A stretch of 62,807 nt of DNA, filler included, from Perkinsus chesapeaki ATCC PRA-425 (Eukaryota; Protista; Perkinsozoa), in assembly GCA_013115145.1 (NCBI GenBank). It is 9 parts of 9 records of this genome, joined end to end, with 100 filler letters (N's around TTAATTAATTAA, not from the genome) between each part and the next. Parts side by side here need not be neighbours in the genome. Positions count along the whole stretch, not along the records: positions 1 to 12,047 come from JAAPAO010000827.1; positions 12,148 to 24,416 come from JAAPAO010000817.1; positions 24,517 to 42,668 come from JAAPAO010000673.1; positions 42,769 to 43,930 come from JAAPAO010002138.1; 5 more parts are not named here. The stretch is one strand, 5' to 3'. The notes under the pieces are model-generated. The model had not been told where the DNA came from, did not search any database, and worked only from the letters and a program-made list of their open reading frames with translations. Made by a program: the position numbers and the translations under genes. Each line of letters opens with the position of its first letter. Position 1 is the stretch's first letter. Shown here in pieces: positions 346 through 43,227 of the stretch.

Positions 346-367
346 GTAGGGGACCCCTACTAGGGGT
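346..367. repeat. 22-bp double-palindrome footprint (perfect)
   Basis: GTAGGGG-A-CCCCTA-C-TAGGGGT; inferred 8-mer GTAGGGGT. Confidence 0.85.
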
Positions 368-437
368 TATTGGGTCGTTATAAAGTCGGTTGATTCCCCC
401 ACTAGAGCAACGCAACCCTACCGGCCTCTATTGGTTC

Positions 438-3103
438 TTATTCGTGTGTTTTGGCTTTAATTAAATTAGCTTCATCATCTAGTTCTTCATAAAACTTAAG
501 GCATTTCGGGTTCGCGCGGATTGCCTAACAAACTCCATCAAAAGAAATCGTCAGCAGCGACCCACAGGTCGGAAATTTCGGCCGGTGGAGCTGATGCTGA
601 CGGACTGTAAGGATCTACAGCGGGACAATGCCACATATGCCTGGCCGAATCTAAGAATCATGCATCGACAAACAGCACGAGGGTGAACCAATTACTCGAA
701 GACAGTGTCCAGCTTAATAACGGCACAGTCGAGCGTCATGCCTTGACTTTTGTGAACACTAAGAGCCCAGGCGAGTTGAAGAGGGATCTGTCGCCGCCGA
801 CCGAGCTCTACAGCGCGTCCACCGGACGATACCGTGCTGTAGAAAACCCACTCGTCCAGCGGGACCGTTATCTGAAAGAAGCTAATCTGGGAGAAGCGAA
901 TAATTGGGCGACCTCTTCTTCTCCAGTTGACACAAACTTAACAACAGGCAAACAAGGAGCCTTCGTGAATCTGTCGCAGAGAATTAGCATTTGTCATGAC
1001 TTCAAATCTGACCGAACTATTATTCCGCGGCTCCCATTGACAAGACATTTCTGCGGTGAAAAGGTTTTATTCAGCATCACTTGCGCACCAACTTTTAAAA
1101 CCACCTGAGCGAGAAGGAATGCGTTGTCCAAAGCGACGTGAAGTTACGAGCTCACTTTTGAACGTGCCGAACACATGGCGTCCAAATTGAGACTGGTAGA
1201 GTCGTACACAGTGTCGACGGCAGTGTAAGTCATCGGCGGTGTTGACAGTCTTGCCAGCTCCCGCTCGTTGATCGCGTCCACCTCGCGCCTGGTCGGCAGA
1301 AGCTGAGACGCGACCACGCCACCAGTGAGCGTGGAGTGCTTCCTTTGGGCAGCCAGCGTGAGGAGCTCTTGCGTTTCCTGGGAGCAGTTACCCAGACGAA
1401 TCTCGTTAAGCATCTGAGCGGAAGGTCGAACACGAGGGAGGCTCCTGCCACGCCCCTCACTGTTGTAAAGGTTGCATCGCCCTCTTGCCGCTTCACTTCC
1501 TTCAACAACAAAATCTTGTGGATGCATTTCTTCCACGTCTTCGCCTAAGCGAGCCATCGCAGACAGGATTCGCGAACCAGCTCACCTCAAAACAGAAGGA
1601 CGCCTCTTCCTTCTTTCCATTGGGCAGGGTCTGGCTGACTGGCGGCAACTAACACCAACGCACTTGTTCAATCGGTCCGCACGCTCTCCCTGCCTGTAGG
1701 AAATCTCCAGTAAGTACGAGCTGGATTCCTCCGAACGGTCGAGAGTCTTGCCGGACCTAAGCTGGACTTCCAGTGGGCTAGCTCTCAGCCCCTACGGTTC
1801 GAGCAATCTGCTCTAGCTTGTCGAACAGTCTGCCGTCCAACATAGATATCTCATCGATGACCAACGTCTTCACTCTTTTCCACCGTCCGAGCCTGAGCAG
1901 ATTCCTGTACGCAGGGGGCATGTGGCCCTACAGTTCAGGAGATCGCTTTATTTTCTGGGCGAGAGCAGGGGCGTCTCGCGTGCCCGAGCCGATGCCTGCA
2001 AAGCTGTGTATCTATTAGAGGCAGGCTCAGTGCTATGGGGGGTGAGGACAGCTCACAGTTTGACCGCCGAGGTGGGAGGCTGCCAACCCTGTAGAAGATG
2101 TCACAGCTGTCAGACCGGGCTTGAGTAGGCGGATCAGCCGGTGGAGAACCTGGCGGCGGTTTCCGTTCCTGTAGGGGAGGGCACTCTTACGAAGGACTTC
2201 CCTGTGCCAGCGCCACCAGTGAAGAACACACTTTTACCAGCAAGCACAGCCTCCACAACCTGCGGGATGGAAATCTCCATTTTACGGCGCGCAGTAATTC
2301 ACTCGTTTTTGCTCTGACGTCATCGCTGGACCGGACTTAACCGCCGGTGACTTCTTCGCAGACCGGGGGATGCCCGGGCGGGCCGGAGTGGTCGGAAGTC
2401 CACCTAGAAGTACATGAAGAGTTACCGATCTCCTGCGTACCCTTTTGGCGAGCATTGAGCCTCGGAGCGGTGGGAGGGGACCACCTGCCCGGCGATATGC
2501 GGTGGGGCGAGGCGAAGGTGTTGAGGCGTTTTCGATCGGCCGGATTGGGAGTTGGACAGGCTGCCGCTGCTGGGCGATGAAGGCTCGAGTAAGCTGGGAC
2601 GGCCTACTGTTGCCATGGTCAAGAGAGAGAGCGGCGATGCTACTCGGCTGAGGGCGCGCTTGGCCGTCGACTTTTGGCTCCGCTGAATGGCAGCAAAGAT
2701 TCCTCGGGCGATCTCGGGCTCACCCCGGGAGCTCATCATTACGGATACACCAGTCTTGACGAATCGGACCGTTAGCAGGCCAATGCGTACCTGACTGAGG
2801 GGAGAGGCAGCCGCCACCGCACTCGGCCACAGTCTGGGAAGCTACCTATGGTGTAGAGTGAAGAAGGACAAAGGGAAATCTCTGTTCTTGTCTTTGAGCT
2901 TCTTGTCGCTCGAGATCCTCAATATCTGCACGGATTGATCGAGCACTCTCGAGACTAATAAGCGATACCTTCTCATCGATGAGCACCATGACCACTGAGT
3001 CGGAGTACTTCTCGAGCTTCGGCGGGCCACGGCCTGCCTTTTCAATGGTCACAGTCATCGGTCCCCCCAGTGGCAGCCCTCGGCAGTCATCATCATGAGG
3101 CAT
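438..3103 (-). CDS. PIF1: PIF1-family 5'-3' DNA helicase, multi-exon, apparently complete
   Basis: Hand-spliced exons give VFFTGGAGTGKSF (Walker A), TSSTGLAASHLGGQTIHSFAGIG, LVIDEISMLDG, PFGGIQLVLTGDFLQLPPV, LKEVKRQEGD, LKVGAQVML, LVNGSRG, RQIPLQLAWALSVHKSQGMTLD and FEFGQAYVALSR. The N-terminal part resembles the PIF1 N-domain. The start codon is approximate. Confidence 0.95.
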
Positions 3104-3279
3104 GCCCAAATTGATGTCTTGTAGGGAAGGTTGCTCCGGTGCACAACACAACTGGTAACTAACGCAAGCCGGGCAAGGGACGGACGGGCGCCGCCGCCGG
3201 TTGAAACGGTCCTCTGGTGAGGCGGCGACAAATACATTGCTAATTCAACTATGCGTTATGATACAATGACATGGCAACT

Positions 3280-12147: not shown

Positions 12148-12228
12148 TGAGTATGAACGTGATTTATGGAGATTAAACATTAAGTGTACCTAATTTATGT
12201 GTACCAATCGTTAACATCCCCCTCTATA

Positions 12229-13489
12229 CTACCGTGCAACACAGTAAACTTCAGCGTCTATACTTCGCTCACCATCACTGGTTCCTAGCAAGAGGATATC
12301 CGTGTCAGGGTCCGCACAGACCGGCATAGCGGTCATCGCCATAGAGTCCTCAGCTAGAGGGCTATTACTGAAAGAGGATGGTGTTTCAGTCAGACTAACA
12401 ACACGGACTAACCTATCCAAATCCCAGCATCTGACAGCATAATTGTCTGCAACCACCAGAGAGGTCTCCCGCCACAGCACTACAAAGTTAATGCGTGACG
12501 AATCGTCACTGACGATCCGGCCAAGAACTCGCGTAGGCGAATGCGCTCCTCGAGGTCCCATATTTTGACCATGCGGTCGAATGATTCGACTCGAATCTGC
12601 CCGCAGTCGCCAACGTCCTGCGACAATCTTTCTGCCCAAGAGTCTCGGGCCAAAGAGGCCCAATATTCAACAACTCACCCCCGGCTGTATTCCATCATCA
12701 TCCAGCAATGCAATGCCTTGAACTGGGCCAGCATGAGAGTCTGGAAACTGCTGCCAGTCACCCTATTTTCGACCAGACCTGATATTAGAATTAATGAGTC
12801 ACGAAAATCCTACTCTTCTAATACTGATAGAGTCTCATCAGTACAACCGATGAGAATGGTACTGCTGCGAGCTTGCAGCGCTAATGAGCACATGCCACTA
12901 GCCGGTAGGGTCCGTGCTAGGGACAGCGAGGGACCAATGCGCCCCCAAAAGCGCAAGGTGTCATCATCACTGATGGATACAAGGTACGAACCATATCGTT
13001 GAAGGTCAAGAACACTGTCCGCGTGAGCGTTGATAGTCTGTGACTTGGAAATGCAAAATCAGCGCAGAGTCTATCATGAACGGTATTACCCTCAAGATCT
13101 CGAGGCTCCTCTCGTGCAGAATACTCATGTGACCAATAAAGCCGCTGCCGGCCACAAGGCACCGACTATCGGGTACGAAGCACAGTGCGCGAACCTAAGG
13201 TTGCAACTTTCCTTGGCACAGATAGTATGACTGTCACTTACTGGACCGATTCCGAAGACCCTGTTGCTGGCCAGCTCCGCGAAATCCAGGAAATGGTCGT
13301 AGAGCCTCACTAAGCCTCCCAGCGTGCCGATTGCCACCTCGAAAAAACCACTACTATTATCAAACGATTATATACTACCCATGGCTTCCACGTGTGAAGC
13401 GCGGTGGAAAGCGTCGCACGGTCGCTCTCCACCAATCTGTCGGAAACCAACATCATCATAAAGATAATTGATGCCAGCAAGTATAACAT
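12229..13489 (-). CDS. Hypothetical beta-propeller/WD40-like protein with a hydrophobic N-terminus, probably 3'-partial
   Basis: VAIGTLGGLVRLYD, VVADNYAVRCWDLD and ILLLGTSDG are typical WD-like strand motifs. The N-terminus MLYLLASIIFMMMLVS is hydrophobic. Confidence 0.45.
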
Positions 13490-13612
13490 ATTTTTGGCGA
13501 AAGCCTTAAGCAAACTACTAATTAGAAACAATCGGGCCGCGAATCGCTCGTAAGTTGTTCAAAGTGTAAATGGTAGAACTTGTACCGTAGAAGCAAAATG
13601 AAAGTTGTACAT

Positions 13613-13680
13613 ATTCACTAGGATTCGAACCTGTGCGTTCGTCATCCCAACACGCCACGCTAACCGTCATGCTTACACAC
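13613..13680 (-). other. Degenerate tRNA-like sequence (pseudogene or SINE head)
   Basis: Minus strand has a B-box/T-arm CACAGGTTCGAATCCTAGTG; the acceptor and anticodon stems do not pair well. Confidence 0.3.
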
Positions 13681-13884
13681 ACAACAATAACTCAAACTCG
13701 TTGTCCGATGGTGGGGCAGAAAAGTAATGGAAAAACAACACACCCTTTATTCGAACTCTCGAATCAGGTTCCACGTGTATCAGTGGGGAGTGTCACAGGG
13801 GGAATAGAAGACTTAGAGGGAGGGGCTCCATCGACAGTATCATAAGGAGAAAGCACAGTTCCAGAGACAGGAACAATAACATAA

Positions 13885-13926
13885 GAGATGATCTGCTGGA
13901 GATCATCTGCTGGAGATCATCTGCTG
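13885..13926. repeat. 14-bp tandem repeat x3 (GAGATCATCTGCTG)
   Basis: Read directly; the first unit has one substitution. Confidence 0.9.
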
Positions 13927-13964
13927 CAGTCTGCAGATGGAAGGGGCATCGAGGCAAAACTCTA

Positions 13965-14304
13965 CTTGGGACTCCCGAGTTGGGAGGCAGGAGCTTCAGA
14001 GGCCGGGTACATCCAATGGATATAGCTGTGTGCTCGGCGACGCTGTCTTGTATGGGCAGACTGCCCATACAAGGGCAGCCGATGCTCAAAATCCCTATGG
14101 GTGACGTAACTTCACTGAAGCGAATTGGGTGGAAGCAACCCTGTGAGATATGTGAGTTGCTGTAGGTAGGGTCGAATCGACCCGGTCGATGTTGCTAGTC
14201 CTGCAATCATTGCAGTGCAATGTCCAGAAGCCCGTATGCTCGGCGGTTTCCGTTCTCTATTGTAATGTCTACAGTAGATAATCTACTCACTGAGTAGTAC
14301 TCGG
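13965..14304. repeat. Cluster of 22-bp double-palindrome footprints plus a 13-bp-arm palindrome
   Basis: Perfect copies at 14169-14190 and 14201-14222; one-mismatch copies at 13965-13986, 14266-14287 and 14283-14304. CTTGTATGGGCAG-A-CTGCCCATACAAG at 14047-14073. Confidence 0.85.
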
Positions 14305-14370
14305 TAGATTCTACTGTCCGGGGGTAATATAATTCAAGCCTTGGATTTTGCTCACCGTCAGTGACTCCTA

Positions 14371-17100
14371 GTTTGTTTGTTTGTTTGTTTGTGGAGCTCA
14401 AGTGCGGTATTCACTGCTTCTTAATTGCAGTACACCCGCTCGCTCCGCGGGACTTGCCCGCTGGTTCAACCCTGAGGTTGGTGTTCTGTTCCGGGCCTCG
14501 TGGGCAGCCTGGTCCCCCCCGGATGACCAGTCTGGTACCACTGCCCTTAGGAACTTGGTTAATTGCCCGAGTCTAGTTCCTCCTCCACAGACTGCCTCGC
14601 CGACTAGCGTTAAGGCATTGATGGTGGGGGACAAACTCCTACCAGCTTGCATCGGGATTCCTGATTGGAAACTCTTTCCTCTCAGCATCCTCATTTTTGT
14701 TGCGTTGCACCAGAGCCAGTGAGCTATAGTCTCCTTTTGCCCTTGTTCCCGTGGTAGGTTATTAGTTCTCATAGCTTTTTGCGGTCTGTCGTTTTCAATC
14801 TCAGTGAGTTCCGCATTAGATCCGCCGAGATCCGATGATGAACGTCGGCCTTGCTAGAAGTAAGGAGAAATCCCTCCCAATGTCAGAAGGAATCCTTGTT
14901 GAGATATACATTACCTAGGGCTTCCACGACTCGTGGACCACGAGCGGAGCGCAGTGCGAAGTGTACCTCGCTCACTCTCCGCCATGCTATCGGAGAGTAG
15001 CATCACCGAAGGAGGCTTTCGCAACCTGACGTCCTCGAAGTATGGGAACACCTCATTGTCACTGAAAAATTCTCAGAGAGAATTCTTGTTAGAGCTGAGC
15101 AAAAAGGCGCTCGGCATCAGGGTTGAGCTGGCGTTCCTTCGTCTTTAGCACGAATATCAGCCCAGTCAGGTCGACGTTATTTTCGTCGGTGCCACCGTTC
15201 TCAACATGCTGGCCATCAATTTGTTCGGGGCAGCGGGTGCTGCGTGTTGGCTATTATTTTTCAACAACCTTAGAGACCGCCCATAGGAGCGAAACTGGTC
15301 TCCATCTTTTATGTACGTGTATGGTTCTGTTGGAGACCTTGTGTAACATGACCCAGCTAGCATTTTTGAATGGGGCCGGGAAATGAGCCTGATCCAGGCA
15401 GTCCTTTATCAGTTGTAGAAGCCGATCCTCCCATGTCGCACAATGAAGAGCCATTTTGACATGTTCGTATGCCACCTGGTCATGGGTATTGTTTGCAATA
15501 ACCCCCGAACTGGTAGACTCAACACTTGAAGAAGAGCTGTTAGGCATGATAAGTGATTGAATACGAATAATAGTTTTTATTTAATTAAGAGGCTGGTTGC
15601 TCAGAACTGAAACGGTTTGGAACCGTTACATTAGGCGAGCGAGATCTACATGCTAACTGGCGAGCGAGAGAGACATGTCACCTTGCGCGCGAACAGGTAT
15701 GGAAGATTCGAGAATAATCGTGCCGCCACGTCGGCTCCTTGATTCCCCATACTGCCCCCGAATCCACTTACACTGTAAGCCTTACAGCAGATATCAGAAC
15801 TGGGCGGCATGGCCGTAGTCAATTCCTGCACTCTTGTCCAAAAAGTGTCCAGATTCTGGACTCCAGAAGGACAGTGCCGGATCTGCCTGCCTTTAGAGAC
15901 TTCAGGACCGCTTGACTATCAACGTGCAAGTATATTCTGCCAGGGTTAACCCAGCTTTTTACTTCTTGGCATTCATTGAGAGCTAGTATCATTCCACACA
16001 GCTCTGCGTGATATATCGTCAGGCGATTATCGAGCCTGGTCCCTTTCATCGCCGTAATACGTCCTTGACCCTCTTGGCTTCTGCAATATCTCACTACTCC
16101 GCATCCTATGCGTGCAGCTAGTTCCGTCTTATCCTTTAGACTGCCGTCTGAATAGTAGTGCAAGGTTCGAAAGGGTTCTTGTGGAACACCCGGTTCGTTG
16201 ATGGAAACGGTAAACCCGGTAGGTAACGGGCGGGTCCGCTTTCTACTAGATTCGTATTGGAACGTAAGGTCCAGGCCGCAGGTTTTAAGGCTCTAAGCTC
16301 CGCTACTCGGCAAGGAACATCTTCGGTGTGAAGCCAGCATTTGGCGCAGCGTTGCCTCACCTGTTGGGATATCGAGGGTGCCATGGCCCGACTTATGAGA
16401 GACAAGAGCTCATTGGGAGCGGCTTTAACCAAGCCGCAGACCTCCTTTGCGAAGGCGGCCTCCAAGCGGGTTACAATGTCTTCGAACCTTTTATGGTGAG
16501 CTATAACACCCCAGGTTTCACTCGCATGGAGGAAACCTGGAAGGATAAATCTCTTCCAGAGTTGTGTTGCTATGGCAGCCATAGTATGGCTGGGAATCGA
16601 CCATCTCCTACCGAAAACCTTTGAAAAGCGTCCTAGCGCTTTGCGGACCTTGTCCGCTGCGTACCAGGCATGGTCTCTCCAGTTTGCCGAGATAATTACA
16701 ATAACTACGTAGCCGTAGCTAAGCTGCCGTCAATAATCGAATTACCTCTCTCGCACACAAAGAACAAGATCGCTATTTACTGCAGATGCCAGAAACAGTC
16801 TAGATGGACTCGCAAATCCGGGAAGCTGACTGTTAACAGGATCGGGTTAACCCTCGGGCATGTGCAACTCACATCAATCGTCAAAAGCGTTATGAGATTG
16901 GCACACGACGACAGAAGACGTGTGTTTGAGTTGGTCTCTGGCCATGCCCCGACCGCTTCGTATGTTAGCAGGCTTAATAGATCACGGGCATCCTCAACCT
17001 GCCGGTACTGTAAGTCCGCCCGCAAGAGTCTCAACGCGCTGGTCCAGCGCGTTTTTTTATGTTGGAAGAAAACTAAGGGATCGCGGATAGTATCCCCCGG
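14371..17100. mobile_element. Decayed, rearranged RNase-H-bearing non-LTR retrotransposon fragments
   Basis: Minus strand: RT N-part (FPAPFKNASWVMLHK..WRPVSLLWAVSKVVEK, 15254-15547), YLG/thumb region (16136-16770), RNase H (YYSDGS..YHAELCG..HVDSQAV..GNQGADVAA, 15646-16163), and ETIAHWLWC plus an (AAAC)5 tail ending at 14371. Plus strand: post-RNase-H C-terminus LVSGHA..CRYC (16790-17100). Many stops and frameshifts. Confidence 0.8.
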
Positions 17101-22420: not shown

Positions 22421-22702
22421 GATGGTAGTAATACAATACTAAACGAAGTCAAACTCTAAGTAGCAGACTAAGTAGCCCTTGCGAGTCTTCAAATTACCCC
22501 CTTTCAATATATTAGCAAAGGCGACCCTACTGGGATTAGAACCCGGTAGCTCTTGAATAAAAACATACACCTTAACCATCTCTCGCTGAGTCTAGCTCAT
22601 TTTCATTTATAACACTTAACGAGACATTAGTTTCTAGATTTACCATAATAATGAAAAGTTGATATAAAACGTTAAAAAATAAATAAATATCACAACTGCC
22701 AA

Positions 22703-24846: not shown

Positions 24847-24868
24847 GTCGGTACTACTGACTCAGTAG
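24847..24868. repeat. 22-bp double-palindrome footprint (one mismatch)
   Basis: GTCGGTA-C-TACTGA-C-TCAGTAG, 15 nt beyond the stop codon at 24884. Confidence 0.7.
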
Positions 24869-25276: not shown

Positions 25277-25550
25277 TATGTTAGCAAAGAACTGACTAGC
25301 TAGAAGAGACTCGTATTTAGCATTACAAGATAATATGACGCACCGGCACTCTTAACCCAACGTGACGCGACATTTAGTGGGACAATTGAATTCCTGTCAC
25401 TCTTAGTGACATCTGTCGGATTTCCATAGGTTGACGAGCACAGCTTGCTGTGTGTGGAAGGAAATCCTGAAAAAGTCGGATATCTGGGCAAGTTGTCAAC
25501 TTGAAGTTGATATAGTGACTACGGGTTACTAAGTGCGTATATAAGAGTAG

Positions 25551-25572
25551 GCGCACGTCGTGCGCCGCACGA
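25551..25572. repeat. 22-bp double-palindrome footprint (perfect)
   Basis: GCGCACG-T-CGTGCG-C-CGCACGA. Confidence 0.85.
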
Positions 25573-26136: not shown

Positions 26137-26173
26137 ATGACCTGAGTCAGGTCATCTCAGATAACTTATCTGA
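26137..26173. repeat. 9-bp-arm palindrome overlapping a one-mismatch 22-bp footprint
   Basis: ATGACCTGA-G-TCAGGTCAT (26137-26155) and GTCATCT-C-AGATAA-C-TTATCTG (26151-26172). Confidence 0.75.
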
Positions 26174-26491: not shown

Positions 26492-27817
26492 TCAGAGACG
26501 ACCTCGGATATTCTTGGGGCTGATGCGGAATCGACTTATAGCACCTTGAATAGTGCCGAGCACATCAAGAGCACCACCACGAGGGCGTATAGGATGGCCT
26601 TGAGTGTCAATAGGTAAAGCATAGTGCAACAGTAATCGCTTAATCCATTGTTTGTCGATTCCTAACCCCATCAGCATAGCGACTGTACCGGTTACCATTG
26701 GAGTTGCAAATGATGTACCATAGTAGTGTATAGGCGAGCCTTCATTATCTAGACCAACTTGTATCCATAGTCCAAATGCGGCAATGTCCACCACACTGCC
26801 ATAATTGCTCCAACGAGCCAAGGTGTAGGTGTCGTTGTCATTAAGGGCGCCAACGCAGATACCATACGGTCCACCATGAGAGCAGGGATAGCACTCGTAA
26901 GCATCTTTACCTTCATTACCAGACCCAGAAACAACAATAATGCCTTTACGTTCAGCTGCATCTAGTGTCCTTCGATACAAATCTCTACTAGCAACAGACA
27001 TATACTGAAATTCGGTACGGATTGACGCGGATATGATATCCACGCCGATGTCGATTGCCATGTCAATGCCTTCGCAGATGTCGGCTACGTTACCACGACC
27101 GTTCCCGTCGAGGACCTGCATGCTCGCCAACTTGACGTTGGGAGCCATACCGACCATACCATAAGAGTTGTTGCCCTTGGCAGCCATGAGGCGCGCAATG
27201 CTGGTGCCGTGTTGATGAGTAATGTTCTGCTTCGAAGTCTTGTTGACGAAATTCCAGGCACCATAGAAGATCCCTCCACTGGACTTTCTGAATATCCCTT
27301 CCAGGGGAGCAAGGTCGGGGTCAGTGAAGTTGACGCCAGTGTCCAGGATCGCCACGGATACAGTGCGAAGTGAATAGCGGCTCAGAAGGTCCCAAACTTC
27401 ACCCATACGCATACGTTTGAAGTGATCTTGGGTAGTGGCACCAGGATCGTTAACGTGCAGACTTGGATCAAGCTGCTGGACCTCCGCGAAAGCGTTACCG
27501 CCACATTTGACGTCGAGCTTCGGGATAACCTTGGCAGCGTCCTCGGCAAAGGCACATAAAGTGTGAGACTCGATAGTGTCGGGGGAAGTGTGAACTATCT
27601 GTATGTTGGCATTAGTAAGTGTACTCACTTTGACGCTCTTCAGGAAGGATCGCATGTTATCGTCAGCAGAGGAGCTCATATCATCTAGTAAGGAGGGAAG
27701 ACGGCGAATATCCACCAGCGAACCATCTGACATGATAGACAGTAGGGTGCGATCATCAGCGAGTTCTTCTGAGAAGACATGGGTGGCTAGAGCAGACACC
27801 AGTGAGAATAGTAGCAT
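26492..27817 (-). CDS. Secreted subtilisin-like serine protease (S8), intronless
   Basis: Signal peptide MLLFSLVSALATHVFS; catalytic triad VAILDTGV / HGTSIA / GTSFATPMVTG; oxyanion residue in SGNEG. Confidence 0.93.
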   Translation of the reverse strand: MLLFSLVSALATHVFSEELADDRTLLSIMSDGSLVDIRRLPSLLDDMSSSADDNMRSFLKSVKVSTLTNANIQIVHTSPDTIESHTLCAFAEDAAKVIPKLDVKCGGNAFAEVQQLDPSLHVNDPGATTQDHFKRMRMGEVWDLLSRYSLRTVSVAILDTGVNFTDPDLAPLEGIFRKSSGGIFYGAWNFVNKTSKQNITHQHGTSIARLMAAKGNNSYGMVGMAPNVKLASMQVLDGNGRGNVADICEGIDMAIDIGVDIISASIRTEFQYMSVASRDLYRRTLDAAERKGIIVVSGSGNEGKDAYECYPCSHGGPYGICVGALNDNDTYTLARWSNYGSVVDIAAFGLWIQVGLDNEGSPIHYYGTSFATPMVTGTVAMLMGLGIDKQWIKRLLLHYALPIDTQGHPIRPRGGALDVLGTIQGAISRFRISPKNIRGRL

Positions 27818-28995
27818 TTTGAGAATTGCTAACGCAAAGAGTGAACCGAAATGGAAATCTCTCCACACGTCACCCTTCTGAGACGTGACATACGATACGC
27901 TGGTCGCCTGTCACTTGACGGGGCGCGTCTCTCTCTAGCTAGACTAGTCAGGTCTTCTCCTTAGATCGACCTGTTTAGCCACCATGGCTCGTCTACCATC
28001 TTTTGGATGATACGCACGTAGAGGATGCAATCATGTCTTCCAGTCGCGTTTCTAATATGGGTGTATTACATGCCGTGTCGAAAGACTCAACGTGGCACAC
28101 GGGGCGACTAGTGCGCCACTGGAGCGCGTATCTTTCCACGTTCATGCACTACCGGACTCCGAATATTTCCTATCGTATGTCGGTAGTCCTCTGTTGCGAA
28201 CGTTGTCGGTGCAACTCCACCCCCCCCCCTTTCTCTTTTTCTCCCTCCCACTCCGCCCTGGGGATCCTTATGCTATCTGCGCGGCCCTGTCTACTCTACT
28301 ATCCTTTACGGTCCGTTTTAGCAGCCACCCTGCGGACGGCTTGTCACCGTATTCTCGAATATCATCCGCACAAGGCGTGCGGGCTGAAGGTTTCCCATGT
28401 CCAATCTACACTCGTTGCGTTGCTCCAGGGGCCAGAGCGCTAGTCTATTCGACACAATACGATATAGCGCGTGATGTTTCGGTTCACGTTAACTATACGC
28501 AAATGATTTTGATAGAGGATAGTTCTCATATTTGCAATGAAACCGAATAATTCGTATTCTCAGATGTCTGACTCATTATTAAGTGGTGCGGCAACATTAA
28601 ATTTAGAGTACGATGAGAATCAGAAACCTGACAGTTTATCGATCAACCGTCTTAGTATTACTTGGGAGTTATTCAGCGTGTTGTGGAGTTAGCTTACGGA
28701 TTAAATCAAATCGAACTTGAATCGCAAACCTCTCCGTCAGAAAGTATAAATTTTGTCAGTTCCTATCCCACATCATCAGCCGTTCGGGCATATTTCAGCG
28801 ATTCAGAAATCTTCATAGGCCTTGTTCCCTCCAACTTGGTAGCTCACTCTATTAAGCGGCGCTATAAAATTGGTTGAGCCACTTGTGATATGAATTGAAT
28901 GACTATAGAAACCCGAGGCCGTCAAGCTTTTGAAGAAAAGAAGTTACTAAAAGAGTAGTCGGACTAACCATAAGGGGTCTGTCCACAGTCCCAGT

Positions 28996-30756
28996 ATGGA
29001 CCAACCTGCCGATTCACGGCCACAGTTTAGCCTGAATAAACCACGCGTGCGCTCCAGCAGCACACACACATGAAGTGCAGAAAATAGAAGAACTGATTGG
29101 TAACTTGGATAGCTCACTAACGAGCCCGTGCTGCTCATCCAAGCAGCTCCTCACTGAAGGGCACCGAGTCGGTACCCTTCAGTCGGTATTACCGACAAAT
29201 AATCACGGCCATGGCTCGGCCCGAGCATATCGAGTGTGTGTTAAAGTTACACACGCTCTATCAAGCACATCGAGTGCGAGTAGACTCTACTCAGTAGAAA
29301 TAAGACCATAGACAGTAGTAAGGCTGGAAGATTGACCACGAAATTGAAGGTTACTACCCAACCAGCTTCCTCATGACCACAGTCTGTTTGGCAATGCTTG
29401 AAGTGACCGTATCCGTCTCAACATCGTATGTGAATTCATACAGGCTATTACGTGCATCAAATCGGCACCGGGTGCTGATAGTCTCGATGAACATCGTGTA
29501 ATTCAGAGAACTGATGGGGTCGATAGTATAGGGATAATTCCACAGCAGTTTCAGGCGTCCCGAATTAAACGTCCCACCAATACAGAAAACGGTTTCCAAA
29601 ATCTGGTAAGGCTCCGACCCAAACCACTCGGTTTCAACGCCCACATCGTTACCCATATAGCTGATTTGCCCGAGATATCTGCCGCCCAGGATGGCTCCCA
29701 GACACGAGCTACTGACCGAAAGTAGGATGGTTAATAGGATAACTAACATTATGATAACAACTTACACTTTGAAACAATTATTTAAACAACAATGGCGACC
29801 AAGTAAGGTGTATCGCTAAACCTTTACTGGAGTATAGCTGATGGCAATACCGAATCTACCAGCAATTCAATCTTATGATGCATTCTCAAAACTAATTGAG
29901 GGACCACAACGAACATCGGGGACGAAGCGGGGAGCGTCACTAGGCCACACTGCTCTTCTGTTCCTCCCCGTGGCCCTGGTCAGACATGCCTAGTGTAAAG
30001 CTGGAATGGCTTAAACCAATAGGTTTGCTTAGAGCAGATAGCATAGCACAAGAAGTGTCTATTACCCATGTACCAGAAACTACTGTTATGACTAAAAGTA
30101 TACAACTCTTGTGCACATTTGTCAAATATTATTTGAAGTGAGCGGTGGCTCACATGAGGTAGAGACGACGCAAAAATAGTGCCACTTCAACGACTCGATG
30201 CAATCGGCTTCAGTTAGCGCTGTTAGGACGATTCGTTCCTCCAAGAACGATCTTCACCATGACCACCCAGCACAGAAGATGGATACGCTATACATGCAGG
30301 CAGCTAATTCGCCTAGTTCGCTGCCCTCTCCTCCAAGAGATTGGGACAGTCTAGAAACGTGACATCCTACACTAACTGTCTTCAGTTTATGGACCTCTAG
30401 TATGGATTGTTGCGACGGTCATAGTGGTACGGCCGATCCTATATAGTGTTGCCGAAAGCATTGCCTGATTTTGATCAAAGTGCGAAATGAATTGCCGAAA
30501 ATCACTCACAGGGCTCGTGTACGAATAGTATTCATTATATTGTCATGGCGCAGTTGTGAGCCTCTTGTTATTTTAACATGTTCATTACATCGATGGCTTC
30601 GAATGGCACACGACATAGCTAGATGATGACACTAAGAGCTATTTAATCACCATTTACTGTGCAACTCGGACTTATTTATACAACTGATACATCACATGAC
30701 TTGTACTGTATAGAGCGTTGCCGCTCCGTGAAAGGGAATCCCCTGGAGGAATGCTC
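28996..30756. repeat. Segmental duplication, copy 1 (copy 2 at 31729-33486; offset about 2.73 kb)
   Basis: Near-identical ~1.76 kb by direct comparison, with weaker homology extending ~200 nt further left. Confidence 0.95.
29354..29749 (-). CDS. Secreted ~131-aa protein, lineage-specific family
   Basis: Signal peptide MLVILLTILLSVSSSCLG; single exon; G-R-Y-x-G..YPYTID..SLYEFTYD..TVTSS..VVMRK shared with three paralogues. Confidence 0.85.
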   Translation of the reverse strand: MLVILLTILLSVSSSCLGAILGGRYLGQISYMGNDVGVETEWFGSEPYQILETVFCIGGTFNSGRLKLLWNYPYTIDPISSLNYTMFIETISTRCRFDARNSLYEFTYDVETDTVTSSIAKQTVVMRKLVG

Positions 30757-31728
30757 CACATTGGCTTAGACTAGTAACCACTTGTGCTACACATATACTA
30801 TAAATAACTCCCTTGAATCAAGGGCCTTGATAATGCTGTTATCTCTCCTACTGCTGAAGAACTAGACATGTGAAGCTAGTACATCACAGCAGTAACCTAT
30901 AATCACACCAAGGTCGGACAAGCCCAGCTCGTAGGCAAGAGCTGCTTCTTTGCTGCTGTGCTGAGCCTTAGACCCATCCTGAAGGCCATAGACCCATTTG
31001 AAGAAGGCCTGCACACAGTACAGCCATAGGTACATCTAATCTCGGTGCTGTAGAGCTTCACCTGTAACAGTTACACTAGTCGGTCGCTGGGAATGGCGTT
31101 TTGGCTGTGTTGCCAAATATTCCGGTAGAATTTCGGTCATCTGCGATTGAAGGAATCTGTTGACATCAACGCTCAAAGGTCTTTGAGTTATTAACCAGCT
31201 TAATATTTATATAAAACTCAGTCCCAACACCTCGGAGATGATCCCGTTGCAAACCACCGCCGAAGTATCTACAAAGAATCTATGCTATGGTCTATACTAC
31301 TCTAGCCACTACTCCTACAGTTGACACTATTAATTAGTTTCATAGGTTTAACCTTATCCTCACGATAATACAGTGTCACATTGCCTTTATACGGGCTGGT
31401 GCAATAATAGAGAATAAAGCTTGAACTTGTCAGTTAGTATTGAGTGGTGTTGTGAGGTGAAGCTGTGAATCAGAAACACATCTGAACCCTCTGAAGAGCT
31501 AGCTTTATACCGAACATCTCAACCGCCCGAGTATATTCGGATATATTTCACCGATTAATCTCCATAGGTAATCTCTACAGGATTTTTGGAGCGCTGTAAA
31601 AATTGGTTGAGTGGCTTGAGATTCGAATTAAACGACCCCGGTAACTCGAGACCGTCAAGCTATTAAAGATAATAAGTTACCAAAAGAGCAGTCGGACTAA
31701 GCTTAAGGGATCTGTCTACAGTCTCGAT

Positions 31729-33486
31729 ATGGACCAACCTGCCGATTCACGGCCACAGTTTAGCCTGAATAAACCACGCGTGCGCTCCAGCAGCACACAC
31801 ACATGAAGTGCAGAAAATAGAAGAACTGATTGGTAACTTGGATAGCTCACTAACGAGCCCGTGCTGCTCATCCAAGCAGCTCCTCACTGAAGGGCACCGA
31901 GTCGGTACCCTTCAGTCGGTATTACCGACAAATAATCACGGCCATGGCTCGGCCCGAGCATATCGAGTGTGTGTTAAAGTTACACACGCTCTATCAAGCA
32001 CATCGAGTGCGAGTAGACTCTACTCAGTAGAAATAAGACCATAGACAGTAGTAAGGCTGGAAGATTGACCACGAAATTGAGGGTTACTAACCAACCAGTT
32101 TTCTCATGACCACAGTCCGTTTGACAATGCTTGAAGTGACCGTATCCGTCTCAGCATCGTATGTGAATTCATACAGACTTTTACGTGCATCAAATCGGCA
32201 CCGTGTGCTGACAGTCTCGATGAACATCGTGTAATTCAGAGAACTGATGGGGTCGATAGTATACGGATAATTCCACAGCAGTTTCAGGCGTCCCGAATTA
32301 AACGTCCCACCAATACAGAAAACGGTTTCCAAAATCTGGTAAGGCTCTGACCCAAACCACACAGTTTCAACGCCCACATCGTTACCCATATAGCGGGTAT
32401 GCCCGAGATATCTGCCGCCCAGGATGGCTCCCAGACACGAGCTACTGACCGAAAGTCGGAGGGTTAATAGGATAACTAACATTATGATAACAACTTACAC
32501 TCTGAAACAATTATTTTAACAATGGCGACCAAGTAAGGTGGATCGCTAAACCTATACTGGAGTATAGCTGATGGCAATACCGAATCTACCAGCAATTCAA
32601 TCTTATGATGCATTCTCAAAACTAAATGACAGACCGCAACCAACACGGGCAACAAAGCGGGGAGCGTCACTAGGCCACACTGCTCTTCTGTTCCTCCCCG
32701 TGGCCCTGGTCAGACATGCCTAGTGTGAAGCTGGAATGGCTTAACCCAATAGGTTTGCTTAGAGCAGATAGCATAGCACAAGAAGTGTCTATTACCCATG
32801 TACCAGAAACTACTGTTATGACTAAAAGTATACAACTCTTGTGCACATTTGTCAAATATTATTTGAAGTGAGCGGTGGCTCACATGAGGTAGAGACGACG
32901 CAAAAATAGTGCCACTTCAACGACTCGATGCAATCGGCTTCAGTTAGCGCTGTTAGGACGATTCGTTCCTCCAAGAACGATCTTCACCATGACCACCCAG
33001 CACAGAAGATGGATACGCTATACATGCAGGCAGCTAATTCGCCTAGTTCGCTGCCCTCTCCTCCAAGAGATTGGGGCAGTCTAGAAACGTGACATCCTAC
33101 ACTAACTGTCTCCAGTTTATGGACCTCTAGTATGGATTGTTGCGACGGCCATAGTGGTACGGCCGATCCTATATAGTGTTGCCGAAAGCATTGCCTGATT
33201 TTGATCAAAGTGCGAAATGAATTGCCGAAAATCACTCACAGAGCTCGTGTACGAATAGTATTCATTATATTGTCATGGCGCAGTTGTGAGCCTCTTCTTA
33301 TTTTAACATGTTGATGGCATCGATGGCTTCGAATGGCACACGACATAGCTAGATGATGGCACTAAGAGCTATTTACTCACCATTTACTGTGTAACTCGGA
33401 CTTATTTATACAACTGATACATCACATGACTTGTTCTGTATAGAGCGTTTTCGCTCCGTGAAAGGGAATTCCTTGGGGGAATGCTC
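31729..33486. repeat. Segmental duplication, copy 2
   Basis: Matches 28996-30756. Confidence 0.95.
32087..32482 (-). CDS. Secreted ~131-aa protein, paralogue of 29354-29749
   Basis: 19 nucleotide differences from copy 1 by manual alignment; an Arg substitution lies in the signal-peptide core (LTLRLS). Confidence 0.8.
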   Translation of the reverse strand: MLVILLTLRLSVSSSCLGAILGGRYLGHTRYMGNDVGVETVWFGSEPYQILETVFCIGGTFNSGRLKLLWNYPYTIDPISSLNYTMFIETVSTRCRFDARKSLYEFTYDAETDTVTSSIVKRTVVMRKLVG

Positions 33487-36551: not shown

Positions 36552-39500
36552 ATGTCAAAATGCATTCCTTTGCGGGCTCCACAGTCGGCCGCTCGACCGG
36601 GGAAGGTGAGCTCGTTGGCGACTAAGGCTCGAATAGCCACTCCGGAAGCTCTGTATGATTGGATGAAGAAATGCAAACATTGCAAACTGGTCGGCGGAGG
36701 CTTTCCCGAGTTCGCTGGGAAATCCGGTTTGGTTAGGTCTCCACCGAACTGCCAGAGTTTGGATGCAACATAGTTGATGTGAGTATGTTGAAAAAGAAAT
36801 CTGAGGATAAAACGTAGTACTGGACAGGCCGGCATTAATGGGGCATGGGTGCTTAAGGTACTCGAGGAATAACCTCTTACACTGTCTTTTACGAAGGGGC
36901 TTATCTCTTGCTGTGTGGGATGGTAGTAAACGGAGAAGAATAATGGTAGTAGGTATATTGGAAGGTCTGACCTTACTGGCTCTAAGTAGGCACAGGAGGG
37001 TTGTTCACTGGGGGTTGAGGAGGGGCTGAAGGTGACACTACTGAGGCAAGGGCTGCCTAAGTTCTTTGATATCGATGTGGATGAGGACTTTACAGGTGAT
37101 AAGCAGGCAGGGGGAGGAGGAGTCCACGGGGAAGGGGACGGCCGTAATCAATGGGAATTTTACAGAATATGAATATATCTTCATTATTAAGCTGTAGTTG
37201 TGTAGGCTGGCGACACTGTAACTGCTGTATGGGGCTGTATAGTTCTGTCTCGGGGGATCGAACCTACGCCCTATCGGTTAGAAAGCTGAGCGGTAATTTG
37301 AAATGTAGTTTACCACTATACTAACATTCTGAAGTAGTCACTACTAACACTCGGCGACGGTGAGTCACCGTGGGCACGCAAGAGCCTCACAGATTTGACT
37401 CGTTACGTAGAAACCGCAGCTTTTAGAGTTGGAGGATAAATGATATCTAGAGATGAGTCTCCTAGCATTTGTCACCTTTCTTCGGCTGCCTCTACCAAGG
37501 TTTCGGACTTTGTGAAACTTCGAATTGTGGACTTTTCGACGCGAATTCGAGAAAAGATAGAGCTGTGTGGCGGGAAAAGGGACTGTTAATTTATAGATGA
37601 AAATGTACTATAGATATCCCTTATTATTTTGCTGTAATTTTAGGCTCTGGAGTGCAATCCTGGCTTGGTAAGCGTCTCGTGGAACAATGGCCTAATCGAT
37701 TGTACCTATTGGACAAAGCAAACGGAGAAAACGCTCAGGTAGGGCTAATCCGTATAACCTTAAGTGCTAAAGGTGGGAATATTACGGAATTTTCACAGCT
37801 GTCCCGGAGCCCGTTCAAGTGCCCACTTTTCCGAGTGCACAAGCTCGGAAAAGTCACCCTTCCGAGCTCAGAAGGAAATTGTCTGTTCAAGTGAGAATCT
37901 CAATGACCTCATCATGAGATTTCATAGAACTGTTATCTTCCGTAAAGAGCCTCCTAGCCGGGAGGATCTTTCGAACTCCTTTGTTGAATGCAGCCATTTC
38001 AGTCACTGAAAGATCGGGGAATTAAGGATAAAATTTAAGAAGTTTCTGAACGGGTTGGAATGTTAGTTTTATGTTGCTTGTATAAACAAAGGAAGGCATC
38101 AGTGGTGCTCCGGATTACATCCCCATTTTGCATGAGGGACAATATGCTGGATAGCATCTCCAAGCGACTCGGCAGTGGACTCGGCCGGACAAGGTGTTCT
38201 TTCAGGTGTCCTGGGCCGTAGAGGTGTCTGCCTGGGTTATCTGCTCTAAGAATGTATCTTTAATGGCGAAGGAGGAATCAGATATAGCCAAGTAGCGGCT
38301 GGTCGAACTTCGACCGTCGAAGGCTTCCGTCTCATCGTAGTCAGGTTCGATGAGGACCGGTTCGAGTACGCTCGGTTTGTTGCCCATGTGTGGTTTGAAG
38401 AGCTGCAAAAACTGCAGAAAAAGGGGACAGTTGACACAGTACGCAGAAGACAACTTAGGCTCTATTGCTATACTGGCCTCAGGTGAAGGATGCTCTTTCA
38501 TCTCGCACTCTTGTTGGAGAACTCTGTGGAAGGAGTGGTGTCCAGCACTTGGTGGAGTACGATAAACCTGGAATTAAATGGCAAGCAATTTTCCCACATT
38601 GCGAATTGCAAAATTTTTTCCTCCTTTCAGGTATGCGCTGGTGGACAATGTGTGTGGATGCGAGTCGGCTTGCGTTGATCCAGCTGAAGCTTTGTCGATG
38701 ATCAAAGAATGGGGACTTACGACGATAGAGGAGGTAAGTGAACGGCTGCAGCAGTCTCAATAGCATAGAGAGATGTGCGTCTTCCTTGGGCCCCGGGTGC
38801 ACCTTGGAAGCGATTTTCAAAGTAACCTTGGACTATCGAATTCGGACAGTGCGCAGAGGTGTTGCACATAAAATGTTTTGTCAAGCGTAGGACTCACCAT
38901 CCTAGAAGTTTCATGTTCTTAGTCGCTGAAATGATAAAACTGTAACATTTTTCCGTTTTGGACTCGAACATCGAACACACTGGAGATAGACTAAGTCTCT
39001 GAAATATGCTCTTAGTTCCGCGGGTGGGTACCGTAACCTGTCGCTCTTCTCTCGTTCGCGTTTTGGGGGCTTTTTAAGTCCCTTCCATTGGACTCCTTTG
39101 TTTTCCCGTCAGGTTCGTCCAGCCAAGTTGGTAGAGTTCTCGCCAGGAGACTGGGATGGCCTGAGTAATGAGATCAGCGCCATCAGTCAGTACGAGATGC
39201 AGGACGTTAGAACTCTTGAGCAACTGATTCGCTGCGGGAGGGAAGGTGTGGTGGCTTACTTTGAGCACTGGGTCCCCGACACTGGCGAGGCCACTGTAGT
39301 GGCACTTGGCAAAGCGAAGACAGCACAGTACAAATTGTTGAGGAAAATGAGGGAAACAGCAAAGGCCTTTTCGCGCAAGCCACAGAAAAGTCTCTTGCAA
39401 ACGTATAAACAAACCGCGGAGGCTACGTTAGCGAACAACGATAGAAAGGAGCAGATCTTGGTGCTGTTTCTTGAGCTATTCCGACGAGTTGAATTTGTTG

Positions 39501-41473: not shown

Positions 41474-41598
41474 AGTTATGAGCTGCTCATAACTACTGCT
41501 GCAGTAGTTGAGCGGCTCAACTTGAGCCAATCACGCGGAGGTGGGTCTCAACTTGAGACTCCTGAGGTCTTCGACCTCAGTCGCCGACCGACGGTCGG
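41474..41598. repeat. Dense chain of overlapping palindromes and footprints
   Basis: 1-nt-centre palindromes with arms of 10, 9, 8, 7, 7 and 7 bp. Perfect footprint at 41507-41528 and a one-mismatch copy at 41577-41598. Confidence 0.9.
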
Positions 41599-41724
41599 AC
41601 ATGTTCATGCAGAGGAGCGACATGCACGTCATGCAGAAAGATATCATGTCGAGTGCCACTGGCACTGTGCCAGAAGGAACTTCCAAAAGTTTATGCATTC
41701 ACCTAAATATCCATCCTTATTGTA

Positions 41725-42210
41725 TTAGTCCCAGTATCCATGTTCATTGTGGTTGTTGACAACAACAACTTGTTGTTGCAGTGGATGTTTAGACAGATAC
41801 TTTGAGAGTTTTTGTATCTCAATGAACTCAATAATGCACATCTCACCTATCTGCGGCGCGCTGTGCGCTTTCGACGCCAATCGCGCCGATAATTCATCAA
41901 CTCTATCCGAGATCTTTCTGCCCATCGGGTTCTCATTCTCTGGAAAGTACGAGATGCAGCTATGCCTGCCAGGCATTGCCTGGGAGTTTTACTAATTTAG
42001 TAAACTGCTCTAGGCTGAAACGGTACCGGAAGTAGCCGAGTATACATAAACAATGCGATCTACCTGTGGCTCACCTTGTTGAGCCGCCTTTTGCCAGACT
42101 TTGTACCCTCCGATGGGCACGCGTCGTCCTTGCTGGATAGCAGAGATTGCCTCTTCATGTACAAACTTGAAAATGTCCATATCATCTTTATCGATGGATT
42201 GTTCAGCCAT
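41725..42210 (-). CDS. Small hypothetical gene, spliced
   Basis: MAEQSIDKDDMDIFKFVHEEAISAIQQG..AAQQ|ENENPMGRKISDRVDELSARL..; the 3' end is uncertain. Confidence 0.5.
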
Positions 42211-42338
42211 GATAAGATCTTATAAACACAAGGCCTCAAAATTTGAGGCTCAAATTAAAAAGTTAAAGAGCTGATTAACGATGAAGATAACTACACCGTA
42301 TGGTGACTCACCATTGGTGAGAGACTCTCACTGAGAGT
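41962..42338. repeat. Four perfect 22-bp footprints
   Basis: 41962-41983 (intronic), 42234-42255, 42300-42321 and 42317-42338 (the last two overlap). Confidence 0.88.
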
Positions 42339-42530
42339 CGATACCAGTTGTGACTACAATGATATGTAATGATAATGATATGATAATGATAATTATCATA
42401 GCTATGTAACTCTTAGGCTGGTAGCCTAGCCTACCCAGCTTATTATAGGAATAGTAAGAGAGAAAGCTTAGCCTGAGACAAATGCCGCTGTTAAACAGCT
42501 GCTGTTTCATCCCACCAAAGACGTTTTTAG

Positions 42531-42620
42531 ACCCCCCCACAGGGGTGGTTTCCCCCCCCCCCCAAATTCCAAAGGTACCCCTCCACTACGACCACCCCCC
42601 CCACATATTGGATACCCCCC
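42531..42620. repeat. C-run-rich tract (G-rich on the minus strand)
   Basis: Runs of 7, 12, 4, 8 and 6 C within 90 nt at the contig end. Confidence 0.8.
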
Positions 42621-43154
42621 TATAGCCCTGGGTGGTGGGATATGTGTATAACTCTCTATGTGTGCTGANNNNNNNNNNNNNNNNNNNNNNNNNNNNNNNN
42701 NNNNNNNNNNNNTTAATTAATTAANNNNNNNNNNNNNNNNNNNNNNNNNNNNNNNNNNNNNNNNNNNNCTCACTTCAAATCACTGTGACAATCGCTTTTT
42801 GCCTTCAAGGGACCAACTCTCACAAAATATATTACGTTAGAATCGTTTGCAAGTAACCGCCGGTACTTCACCGGCCACTCGAAGCTCGAGTTAGCAAGTT
42901 TATCACGACATGGTTTTATCCGGTACTACACGGCCTATGCAGACTTTAGAAATTCCCATACCTTCGGCTGTCCCAAGCTGTCCGACGGGAGTCCTACGGA
43001 GTAATCAATCCGCTGCAATCTTTGTTTCCAGTCGCACAAAGGAGCTTCGTGAGTGTCGTGGTGGGTCAAAAACCATAACGAAGAACTCGAACTTGGAGTC
43101 TCCAAGTTGAGCATTGCAAGCAGTATGAGGTACGACCCAAGATTCACGGCAGTA

Positions 43155-43227
43155 GCTACAAACTGTAGCCTACAGTACTCTTATACTGGTAGAGTCTACC
43201 AGGTAGACACCTGAGGTGTCACACCTC
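43155..43227. repeat. Three footprints in series
   Basis: 43155-43176 (one mismatch); 43187-43208 and 43206-43227 (perfect, overlapping). Confidence 0.88.

What the first reader, a model, noticed from the sequence alone, without database searches (positions are those of the whole stretch)
346..43227. Recurrent 22-bp double-palindrome signature matching hAT-type hairpin excision footprints
Seen: the form b1-b7 / b8' / b7'-b2' / b1' / b2-b8 (two overlapping 7-bp-arm palindromes with 1-nt centres exactly 7 nt apart). Perfect copies start at 346, 14169, 14201, 25551, 38301, 41507, 41962, 42234, 42300, 42317, 43187 and 43206. One-mismatch copies start at 13965, 14266, 14283, 24847, 26151, 29278 (duplicated at 32011), 41577 and 43155. 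Eight free bases fix the other 14, so chance expectation is about 62,800 x 4^-14, or 2e-4 per window. Every copy seen is non-coding, as expected for a +14-nt frameshifting event. Established: hAT transposases (Hermes, Ac) make 8-bp TSDs and nick one base into the flank, giving flank hairpins centred on the complement of the TSD base next to the element. Inference: opening both hairpins and annealing their shared 6-nt overhang gives exactly this 22-mer. The genome would then carry a dense record of stereotyped excisions, which could be read back to recover target sites. I am not aware of this being described at such density as a genome-wide mark, but cannot search.
Basis: partly seen in the sequence, partly recalled or inferred. 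Interest (0 to 1): 0.92.

Follow-up and report, generated by a model that had tools for sequence, protein, structure and literature searches.

The report
Uniform transposon excision scars in Perkinsus
This stretch of a shellfish parasite's genome carries about forty copies of one 22-letter double palindrome, each 14 letters longer than the 8-letter site it is built from, which likely mark places where a cut-and-paste jumping gene left and the cell rejoined the two hairpin-sealed ends the same way almost every time.

Summary
The window is Perkinsus DNA. Related copies of one segment lack exactly the predicted 14 nt at two sites. The deduced 8-mers carry the hAT bias nTnnnnAn (33 of 70, p=8e-5), none lies in 9.6 kb of long open frames, and rare long-armed variants keep the same 8-bp duplication, as two separately opened hairpins would. 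The usual short Ac/Ds footprint is not enriched (2 vs 1.9). Best reading: excision of a hAT-type element, repaired by annealing the two inverted copies of the target duplication (0.8). Not shown: the transposase, and a site still holding an element. Loss of NHEJ does not explain the uniformity: Ku70, Ku80 and Lig4 are listed for P. marinus. The chemistry is known; the uniformity and density were not found in print. The scan noted the same scar on five other Perkinsus windows.

The parts
346..367 (.). perfect 22-nt scar
12495..12516 (.). perfect scar; paralogous copies lack the 14 nt
12576..12597 (.). perfect scar; paralogous copies lack the 14 nt
13572..13593 (.). one-mismatch scar; also carried by a paralogous contig that ends at its last base (not bridged)
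13965..13986 (.). one-mismatch scar
14047..14079 (.). long-armed variant: 13-nt arms around 14060, second half of the 8-mer follows with one mismatch
14169..14190 (.). perfect scar
14201..14222 (.). perfect scar
14266..14304 (.). two overlapping one-mismatch scars (starts 14266, 14283)
14923..14944 (.). perfect scar
15766..15787 (.). one-mismatch scar in decayed retroelement-like frame
15847..15868 (.). perfect scar that shifts the frame of a decayed RNase H-like reading frame on the minus strand
16570..16591 (.). perfect scar in the same decayed element
24847..24868 (.). one-mismatch scar
25489..25510 (.). perfect scar
25551..25572 (.). perfect scar
26151..26172 (.). one-mismatch scar
29278..29299 (.). 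one-mismatch scar, copied at 32011 by the 1.9-kb duplication
30115..30136 (.). one-mismatch scar, copied at 32845 by the duplication
30810..30831 (.). perfect scar
32011..32032 (.). duplicate of the scar at 29278
32845..32866 (.). duplicate of the scar at 30115
38301..38322 (.). perfect scar
41474..41509 (.). double palindrome with 1-nt centres 16 apart, arms 10 and 9, 4-nt overlap; implies only a 4-nt duplication (unexplained)
41507..41528 (.). perfect scar
41577..41598 (.). one-mismatch scar
41652..41673 (.). perfect scar
41752..41778 (.). variant on a 3-periodic 8-mer: centres 10 apart, joined three bases out of register
41962..41983 (.). perfect scar
42234..42255 (.). perfect scar
42300..42338 (.). 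two overlapping perfect scars (starts 42300, 42317)
42486..42507 (.). one-mismatch scar
43085..43106 (.). one-mismatch scar
43155..43176 (.). one-mismatch scar
43187..43227 (.). two overlapping perfect scars (starts 43187, 43206)
44733..44754 (.). perfect scar
54137..54158 (.). perfect scar inside a repeat with inverted ends
54865..54929 (.). long-armed variant: centres 54890 and 54922, arms 25 and 7, same 8-nt duplication and 1-nt centres
58755..58776 (.). perfect but two-letter copy in the A+T-rich tail (least secure)

Best explanation
Each 22-mer is a 14-base gain at an 8-base site X (X1-7, then the reverse complement of X, then X2-8), likely left when a hAT-type DNA transposon with an 8-bp target duplication excised and the host annealed the two opened flank hairpins. 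Shown here: the fixed geometry, the +14 relation to a single 8-mer at two sites, the nTnnnnAn bias, the absence from intact reading frames, and long-armed variants on the same 8-bp duplication. Taken from the literature: hAT transposases seal the flanking DNA as hairpins, and the palindromes in their footprints are centred on the complement of the base next to the element. Inferred: (1) an element once sat between two copies of X; (2) the left flank closed as X1-7/X8'/X7'-X1' and the right as its mirror; (3) a host nuclease opened each hairpin several bases from the tip; (4) both overhangs then read as the reverse complement of X and its complement, so they anneal over up to 8 nt, flaps are trimmed and the join is sealed, giving the 22-mer whatever the exact opening point. 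The other annealing register (X2-7 on X2-7) would restore the single 8-mer and leave no trace, so the 22-mer would be the only visible product of a repair route that needs several bases of homology.
For: Unit length 8 only and spacing 7 only. Contigs of runs X2 and X5 lack 14 nt starting at 12496 and 12577, the exact left-aligned starts of a collapse to the 8-mer. T at position 2 or A at position 7 in 33 of 70 positions against 25.6% (p=8e-5, 35 sites, two duplicates dropped; perfect copies alone 21 of 44, p=0.001); Hermes prefers nTnnnnAn 8-bp targets (PMC10368747, passage). Ds footprints are palindromes centred on the complement of the base next to the element and mostly use microhomology (PMC5873905, passages). 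Variants that need two independent ends: arms 25 and 7 on an 8-nt duplication at 54865-54929, and a three-base register slip on a periodic 8-mer at 41752-41778; 6 of 25 other 1-nt-centre palindromes are followed by the second half of their 8-mer within one mismatch, against 0.5 by chance (five events, two of which also read as two-mismatch standard scars). 0 of 37 sites in 9,592 bases of long open frames, 6.5 expected. At 15847 the open frame runs 157 codons as is, 210 with 14 bases left out, 161 and 153 with 13 or 12.
Against: No transposase among 266 reading frames of 70 aa or more scanned against Pfam, nor in the long frames; no intact element with inverted ends and an 8-bp duplication in the window; no paper in the library showing hAT in Perkinsus among the listings and the two papers read. 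The single-8-mer state is seen at only 2 sites, in 2 of 4 runs laid, both of one sample, and in paralogues, not alleles; only 12 of 202 indel rows were displayed. The repeat ends seen in the window finish in CCC (12220, 54836), not in the TG that a 5'-CA hAT end would give (consensus from PMC4423477), so they may be unrelated. Known hAT footprints are heterogeneous and mostly short, unlike these. One double palindrome implies a 4-nt duplication (41474-41509). The frame test is positive at 15847 only; at 15766 and 16570 leaving out 14 bases does not lengthen the frame.
Confidence: 0.8

Rival explanations
1. The same flank-hairpin route, but cut by another transposase superfamily with long duplications (Mutator-like, or Merlin if it forms hairpins).
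For: Muta1 forms flank hairpins and makes 8- or 9-bp duplications (PMC5499845, passages). Merlin (8-9 bp duplications, ends in GG) has remnants in P. marinus (PMC8101967, passage). Repeat ends in the window begin GGG.
Against: No 9-nt form at all (0 perfect, 0 one-mismatch); more than 90% of Muta1 excisions in yeast were precise; nTnnnnAn is reported for a hAT element; no hairpin chemistry was seen for Merlin in the passages read.
Confidence: 0.1
2. A transposase-derived nuclease, or an element that leaves again at once after strand transfer (hit and run), makes the hairpins without a lasting resident element.
For: About 0.7 scars per kb but no intact 8-bp-duplication element in the window. 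[quoted passage not shown]
Against: The 22-mer needs the 8-mer duplicated before the hairpins form, which an insertion step provides; one 55-kb window with many gaps at repeats cannot show that elements are rare.
Confidence: 0.05
3. Replication template switching: the polymerase jumps to the opposite strand for eight bases and back.
For: It yields the same direct-inverted-direct order without any element, and no element was found.
Against: No reason for one fixed length; no microhomology at the switch point (9 of 44, 25% expected); at the other switch the 3' base would face its own letter; it does not predict nTnnnnAn or the 25/7-armed variant.
Confidence: 0.04
4. Library or assembly artefact (fold-back chimeras).
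For: The window is a gapped draft assembly; run X1 may be the source of this DNA.
Against: Contigs of X1 bridge 8 sites with no differing letter and those of X2, X4, X5 (another study) bridge 14923; copies have aged by point changes, are copied by a segmental duplication and avoid genes.
Confidence: 0.01

Closest known systems
Ac/Ds (hAT) excision footprints in plants, S. cerevisiae and Candida albicans (PMC5873905, passages; PMC1978519, passages)
   Same: Palindromic additions centred on the complement of the base next to the element; joins through microhomology (85 to almost 100% in Arabidopsis, 88-89% in S. cerevisiae, 51% in Candida); 8-bp duplication.
   Different: There the products are diverse and mostly short (28 kinds in 128 Candida events, arms up to 3 nt; in S. 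cerevisiae up to 20 nt). Here one product with the whole inverted duplication dominates, the 16-nt two-base form is at chance level (2 vs 1.9), and the marks are natural and occur at about 0.7 per kb.
Hermes (hAT) target preference and flank-hairpin cleavage (PMC10368747, passages; PMC5499845, passages)
   Same: 8-bp target, nTnnnnAn bias, hairpins on the flank left for host enzymes to open.
   Different: The Perkinsus enzyme was not found; the bias here is moderate (47% per position).
Mutator-like Muta1 (PMC5499845, passages)
   Same: Flank hairpins and 8-bp duplications.
   Different: Also makes 9-bp duplications and mostly excises precisely; no 9-nt scar class here.
Natural DNA-transposon excision sites in rice (PMC4423477, passages)
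   Same: Excision scars read from genome sequence.
   Different: Heterogeneous deletions and filler DNA that need a second genome to be recognised; the Perkinsus scar can be read from a single sequence.

Membership tests
hAT excision footprint | 8-bp target duplication | tested here: met
   only unit 8 gives the form; collapse to one 8-mer in paralogues at 2 sites
hAT excision footprint | palindromes centred on the complement of the base next to the element (1-nt centre) | tested here: met
   1-nt centres carry the excess (82 vs 5.3 with arms of 7 or more), 0-nt centres do not (5 vs 3.6)
hAT excision footprint | nTnnnnAn target bias (Hermes type) | tested here: met
   33 of 70, p=8e-5; central TA (Buster type, recalled) in 1 of 22
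hAT excision footprint | the same site occupied by an element in another allele or copy | tested here: inconclusive
   none among the rows displayed for 12148-24416; the gene-flanking cluster at 41.5-42.5 kb was not examined in reads
hAT excision footprint | hAT transposase (DDE plus C-terminal dimerisation domain) and CA/TA-ended elements in the genome | not testable with these tools
   no whole genome; none in the window; no other Perkinsus DNA found
hAT excision footprint | heterogeneous, mostly short products | tested here: not met
   22-mer 21 vs 0; 16-nt form 2 vs 1.9; both copies kept 0 vs 1.1. This is a host-repair trait and is the new aspect, not a feature of the transposase family
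Mutator-like excision | mixed 8- and 9-bp duplications | tested here: not met
   0 copies of the 9-nt form at 0-1 mismatches
Template-switch inversion duplication | microhomology at the switch points and variable length | tested here: not met
   9 of 44; single length
Repair signature of NHEJ-less protists | loss of Ku70, Ku80 and ligase IV | not testable with these tools
   not searched in sequence; Table S1 of PMC6635534 lists all three as present in P. marinus, which speaks against it

The most novel reading that the evidence does not exclude
Perkinsus repairs transposase-made hairpin ends almost only by annealing the two inverted copies of the target duplication, although it keeps Ku and ligase IV, so its genome holds tens of thousands of self-identifying scars from which every past target site, the enzyme's preference and the relative age of each visit can be read without a second genome; at the window's density they would add close to 1% of the genome.
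Probability: 0.55. Interest if true: 0.72.

Novelty: new variant of a known kind. Interest (0 to 1): 0.6.

Why it matters
Excision is the half of cut-and-paste transposition that genomes normally erase or blur. A scar that spells out its own target gives a direct count of past excisions, a target-site logo and a dating series from one assembly, and it makes hairpin opening and end joining testable in a lineage (Perkinsozoa, between apicomplexans and dinoflagellates) where the one editing paper read gives no data on the repair route. It also predicts how double-strand breaks heal in this parasite, supplies +14 indel markers for strain typing, and is a frameshifting mutagen that appears to help kill resident retroelements. 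The chemistry itself is textbook.

Tried and rejected
No whole genome is held, so nothing genome-wide was measured. Pfam scans of 266 reading frames plus 7 long ones found subtilisin, integrase cores, FBPase, citrate synthase, WD40 and others, but no DNA transposase. Scans for inverted ends with 7-10-nt flanking repeats gave one convincing case, 54021-54829 with a 7-nt repeat; on reading, that repeat is more simply the GTACACCC end shared by two abutting repeats, so it is not counted as a duplication; relaxed scans gave only chance-like hits. Searches for more Perkinsus DNA found nothing: a repeat-end pattern and a gene in metagenome contigs, an integrase in viral contigs. Two homologue searches with the RNase H-like frame found none, a PDB search gave only noise, and the profile search never ran because its queue was full, so the frameshift at 15847 rests on frame length and a weak Pfam match (RVT_3, E 0.005). 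My first idea, that loss of NHEJ forces annealing, is not supported. A 14-nt footprint class (tandem 6-mers) is 14 vs 7.9 in shuffles, many in coding low-complexity DNA; not claimed. Clustering of overlapping scars was not tested by a call and is not claimed. Read coverage of the 37-43 kb cluster was not obtained, so allele states there are open. Yu et al. 2004 and Colot et al. 1998 (Ascot-1) are not held; the latter, recalled as describing hairpin-derived inverted duplications at a natural hAT site, may contain this very product. The search was uninformative.
Full report
Setting. The window is a gapped eukaryotic scaffold (19 runs of N) with no whole genome held. It encodes a subtilisin at 26495-27910, integrase-bearing retroelement frames at 47.4-53.3 kb, and exons of FBPase, citrate synthase and other genes. 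All nine named relatives of the subtilisin are from Perkinsus chesapeaki or P. olseni at 40-46% identity, so this is Perkinsus DNA; the species was not established.

The observation. The form is X1-7, reverse complement of X1-8, X2-8. The window holds 23 perfect, 15 one-mismatch and 16 two-mismatch copies; units of 6, 7 and 9-12 give no perfect copy. Over 54,541 non-N bases of 1-55436 the counts with 0/1/2/3 mismatches are 22/15/9/27 against 0/0/0.5/6.4 in 30 local shuffles. Without assuming the form, palindromes with 1-nt centres and arms of 7 or more number 82 against 5.3, those without a centre 5 against 3.6, and pairs of 1-nt-centre palindromes peak at spacing 7 (31 against 0.1; no other spacing above 3). 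Arm length jumps at 7 (61 with 7, 25 with 6).

It is an insertion of 14 bases. Five public runs of two studies hold the region, four marked as possible sources. Four were laid on 12148-24416. The segment 12.2-13.6 kb has about three times the depth of its neighbours and contigs that differ by 2-3%, i.e. paralogues. In runs X2 and X5 such contigs lack 14 bases from 12496 and from 12577; X1 and X4 show no contig in those rows. These are the left-aligned starts of a collapse of the scars at 12495 and 12576 to their 8-mers. Limits: one sample, paralogues not alleles, and only 12 of 202 indel rows displayed. A paralogous contig of X1 runs without gap to the last base of the older, one-mismatch scar at 13572, which suggests that this one predates the duplication. 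Contigs of X1 bridge eight scars with no differing letter, and those of X2, X4 and X5 bridge 14923, so the marks are not assembly errors. The scars at 29278 and 30115 are copied by a 1.9-kb duplication. Mean decay of the detectable copies is about 3% per base (rough, older copies are lost to detection).

Where they lie. None of 37 sites falls in 9,592 bases of long open frames (6.5 expected, p=0.0015); density is 0.08 per kb in the gene-rich 1-12 kb, 0 in 17.4-24.4 kb, 2.3 in 12.1-17.4 kb and 3.6 in 41.4-45 kb. Three lie in a decayed retroelement-like frame on the minus strand with a weak RNase H-like match (RVT_3, E 0.005, profile positions 3-78 of 123) that ends at the scar 15847; the open frame there is 157 codons as is and 210 when 14 bases are left out, but 161 and 153 for 13 and 12. 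The same test is negative at 15766 and 16570.

Target preference. In 35 deduced 8-mers (at most one mismatch, two duplicates dropped) position 2 is T or position 7 is A in 33 of 70 cases against 25.6% background (p=8e-5); no other position departs as far. Perfect copies alone give 21 of 44 (p=0.001) and a central TA in 1 of 22. Hermes prefers 8-bp nTnnnnAn targets (PMC10368747, passage).

Two ends, not one loop. Variants keep the 8-nt duplication and 1-nt centres but change arm length: arms of 25 and 7 at 54865-54929; a three-base register slip where the 8-mer is 3-periodic at 41752-41778; a 13-nt arm at 14060. Of 25 other 1-nt-centre palindromes with arms of 7 or more, 6 are followed by the second half of their 8-mer within one mismatch, against 0.5 in 500 randomisations; these are five events, and two (17261, 35932) can also be read as two-mismatch standard scars. 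Template switching predicts homology just outside the unit; it is present in 9 of 44 cases, as by chance. One double palindrome (41474-41509) implies a 4-nt duplication and is unexplained.

Uniformity. Among 6-nt direct repeats separated by a hairpin-type filler, the full 8-nt filler occurs 21 times (0 in shuffles), the two-base filler of the usual Ac/Ds footprint 2 times (1.9), and both copies of the duplication kept 0 times (1.1). Precise restoration cannot be seen. In Candida, S. cerevisiae and Arabidopsis, Ds footprints are centred as here but are diverse (PMC5873905 and PMC1978519, passages); natural excisions in rice are heterogeneous (PMC4423477, passages).

Mechanism. Established: hAT, Transib, RAG and Muta1 leave hairpins on the flanks, opened by host enzymes (PMC5499845, passages). 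The nick one base into the flank is recalled from the Hermes work and agrees with the centring stated. Inferred: with an 8-bp duplication the opened left end carries the reverse complement of X and the opened right end its complement, so the ends share up to 8 nt in one register (giving the 22-mer) and 6 nt in another (restoring the 8-mer, invisibly). A repair route that needs several paired bases would funnel most events into these two products. Why Perkinsus should prefer that route is open: Table S1 of PMC6635534 lists Ku70, Ku80 and Lig4 as present in P. marinus (supplement row and header seen), and the Perkinsus CRISPR paper says nothing on it (PMC8062965, one passage).

What is missing. 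No DNA transposase in the window, no intact element with an 8-bp duplication, no filled allele among the rows shown. High-copy repeat ends with GTAC-rich subterminal repeats stand at 12148-12220 and 53.5-54.8 kb, but they end in CCC, unlike the CA consensus of hAT. Dada (6-7 bp) and Merlin remnants are the DNA transposons found in print for P. marinus (passages).

Novelty. Searches for excision footprints with inverted duplication and microhomology, and for Perkinsus with hAT, transposable elements or footprints and palindromes listed nothing that describes this mark; subscription papers, among them Yu 2004 and Colot 1998, could not be read, and figure panels with individual footprints are not held, so the single product may well be in print. 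The scan itself noted the same scar on five other Perkinsus windows; these are unchecked notes and not independent support, and I had reached the reading before seeing them; one of them, a long-armed scar, led me to look for such variants here. Extrapolating 0.68 per kb to the 86.6 Mb listed for P. marinus gives about 59,000 scars, a figure that one repeat-rich window may overstate. Verdict: real, a new variant of a known kind; hAT-type excision with annealing repair 0.8; interest 0.6.

Noticed in passing
window:12148-12220: End of a high-copy repeat (bin depth about 3900 against 107; 6-10 different flanks per run behind 12220), with GTAC-rich subterminal repeats and an end reading GGG from outside; related to 53980-54013 by loose ends. 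Superfamily unknown.
   Followed up: partly
window:53522-54836: Nest of short gene-less repeats with GTAC(A/G) subterminal motifs; 54021-54829 has 14-nt inverted ends (one mismatch); GTACACCC stands at 54013 and 54829.
   Followed up: partly
window:13891-13926: Tandem run with period 14 whose unit reads as a slightly decayed scar unit (base, inverted core, base, core): possibly a scar amplified in tandem.
   Followed up: no
window:41474-41509: Double palindrome with 1-nt centres joined through a 4-nt overlap that implies a 4-nt duplication; may come from another hairpin-forming element or from a site altered on one side.
   Followed up: partly
window:28859-33486: 1.9-kb duplication (28859-30756 and 31591-33486, 95% alike) in which identical stretches alternate with stretches about 90% alike.
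   Followed up: no
window:17459-23059: Runs X2, X4 and X5 (one sample), but not the displayed rows of X1, hold a second set of contigs 85-90% alike at similar depth: a divergent haplotype, paralogue or second species.
   Followed up: no
window:38990-41428: Intron-less open frame of 812 codons with a P-loop-like motif and no Pfam family; no relative in metagenome contigs.
   Followed up: partly
window:55537-62807: Abrupt drop to 23-28% G+C with low-complexity Asn/Gln-rich frames, almost free of scars.
   Followed up: no
window:47389-53332: Fragments of at least two LTR-type retroelements (zinc knuckles, protease-like motif, integrase cores) with long open frames and no scar.
   Followed up: no
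window:45012-45858: Secreted-looking cysteine-rich protein with a 30-nt tandem repeat encoding a Thr/Pro-rich decapeptide, on the minus strand.
   Followed up: no
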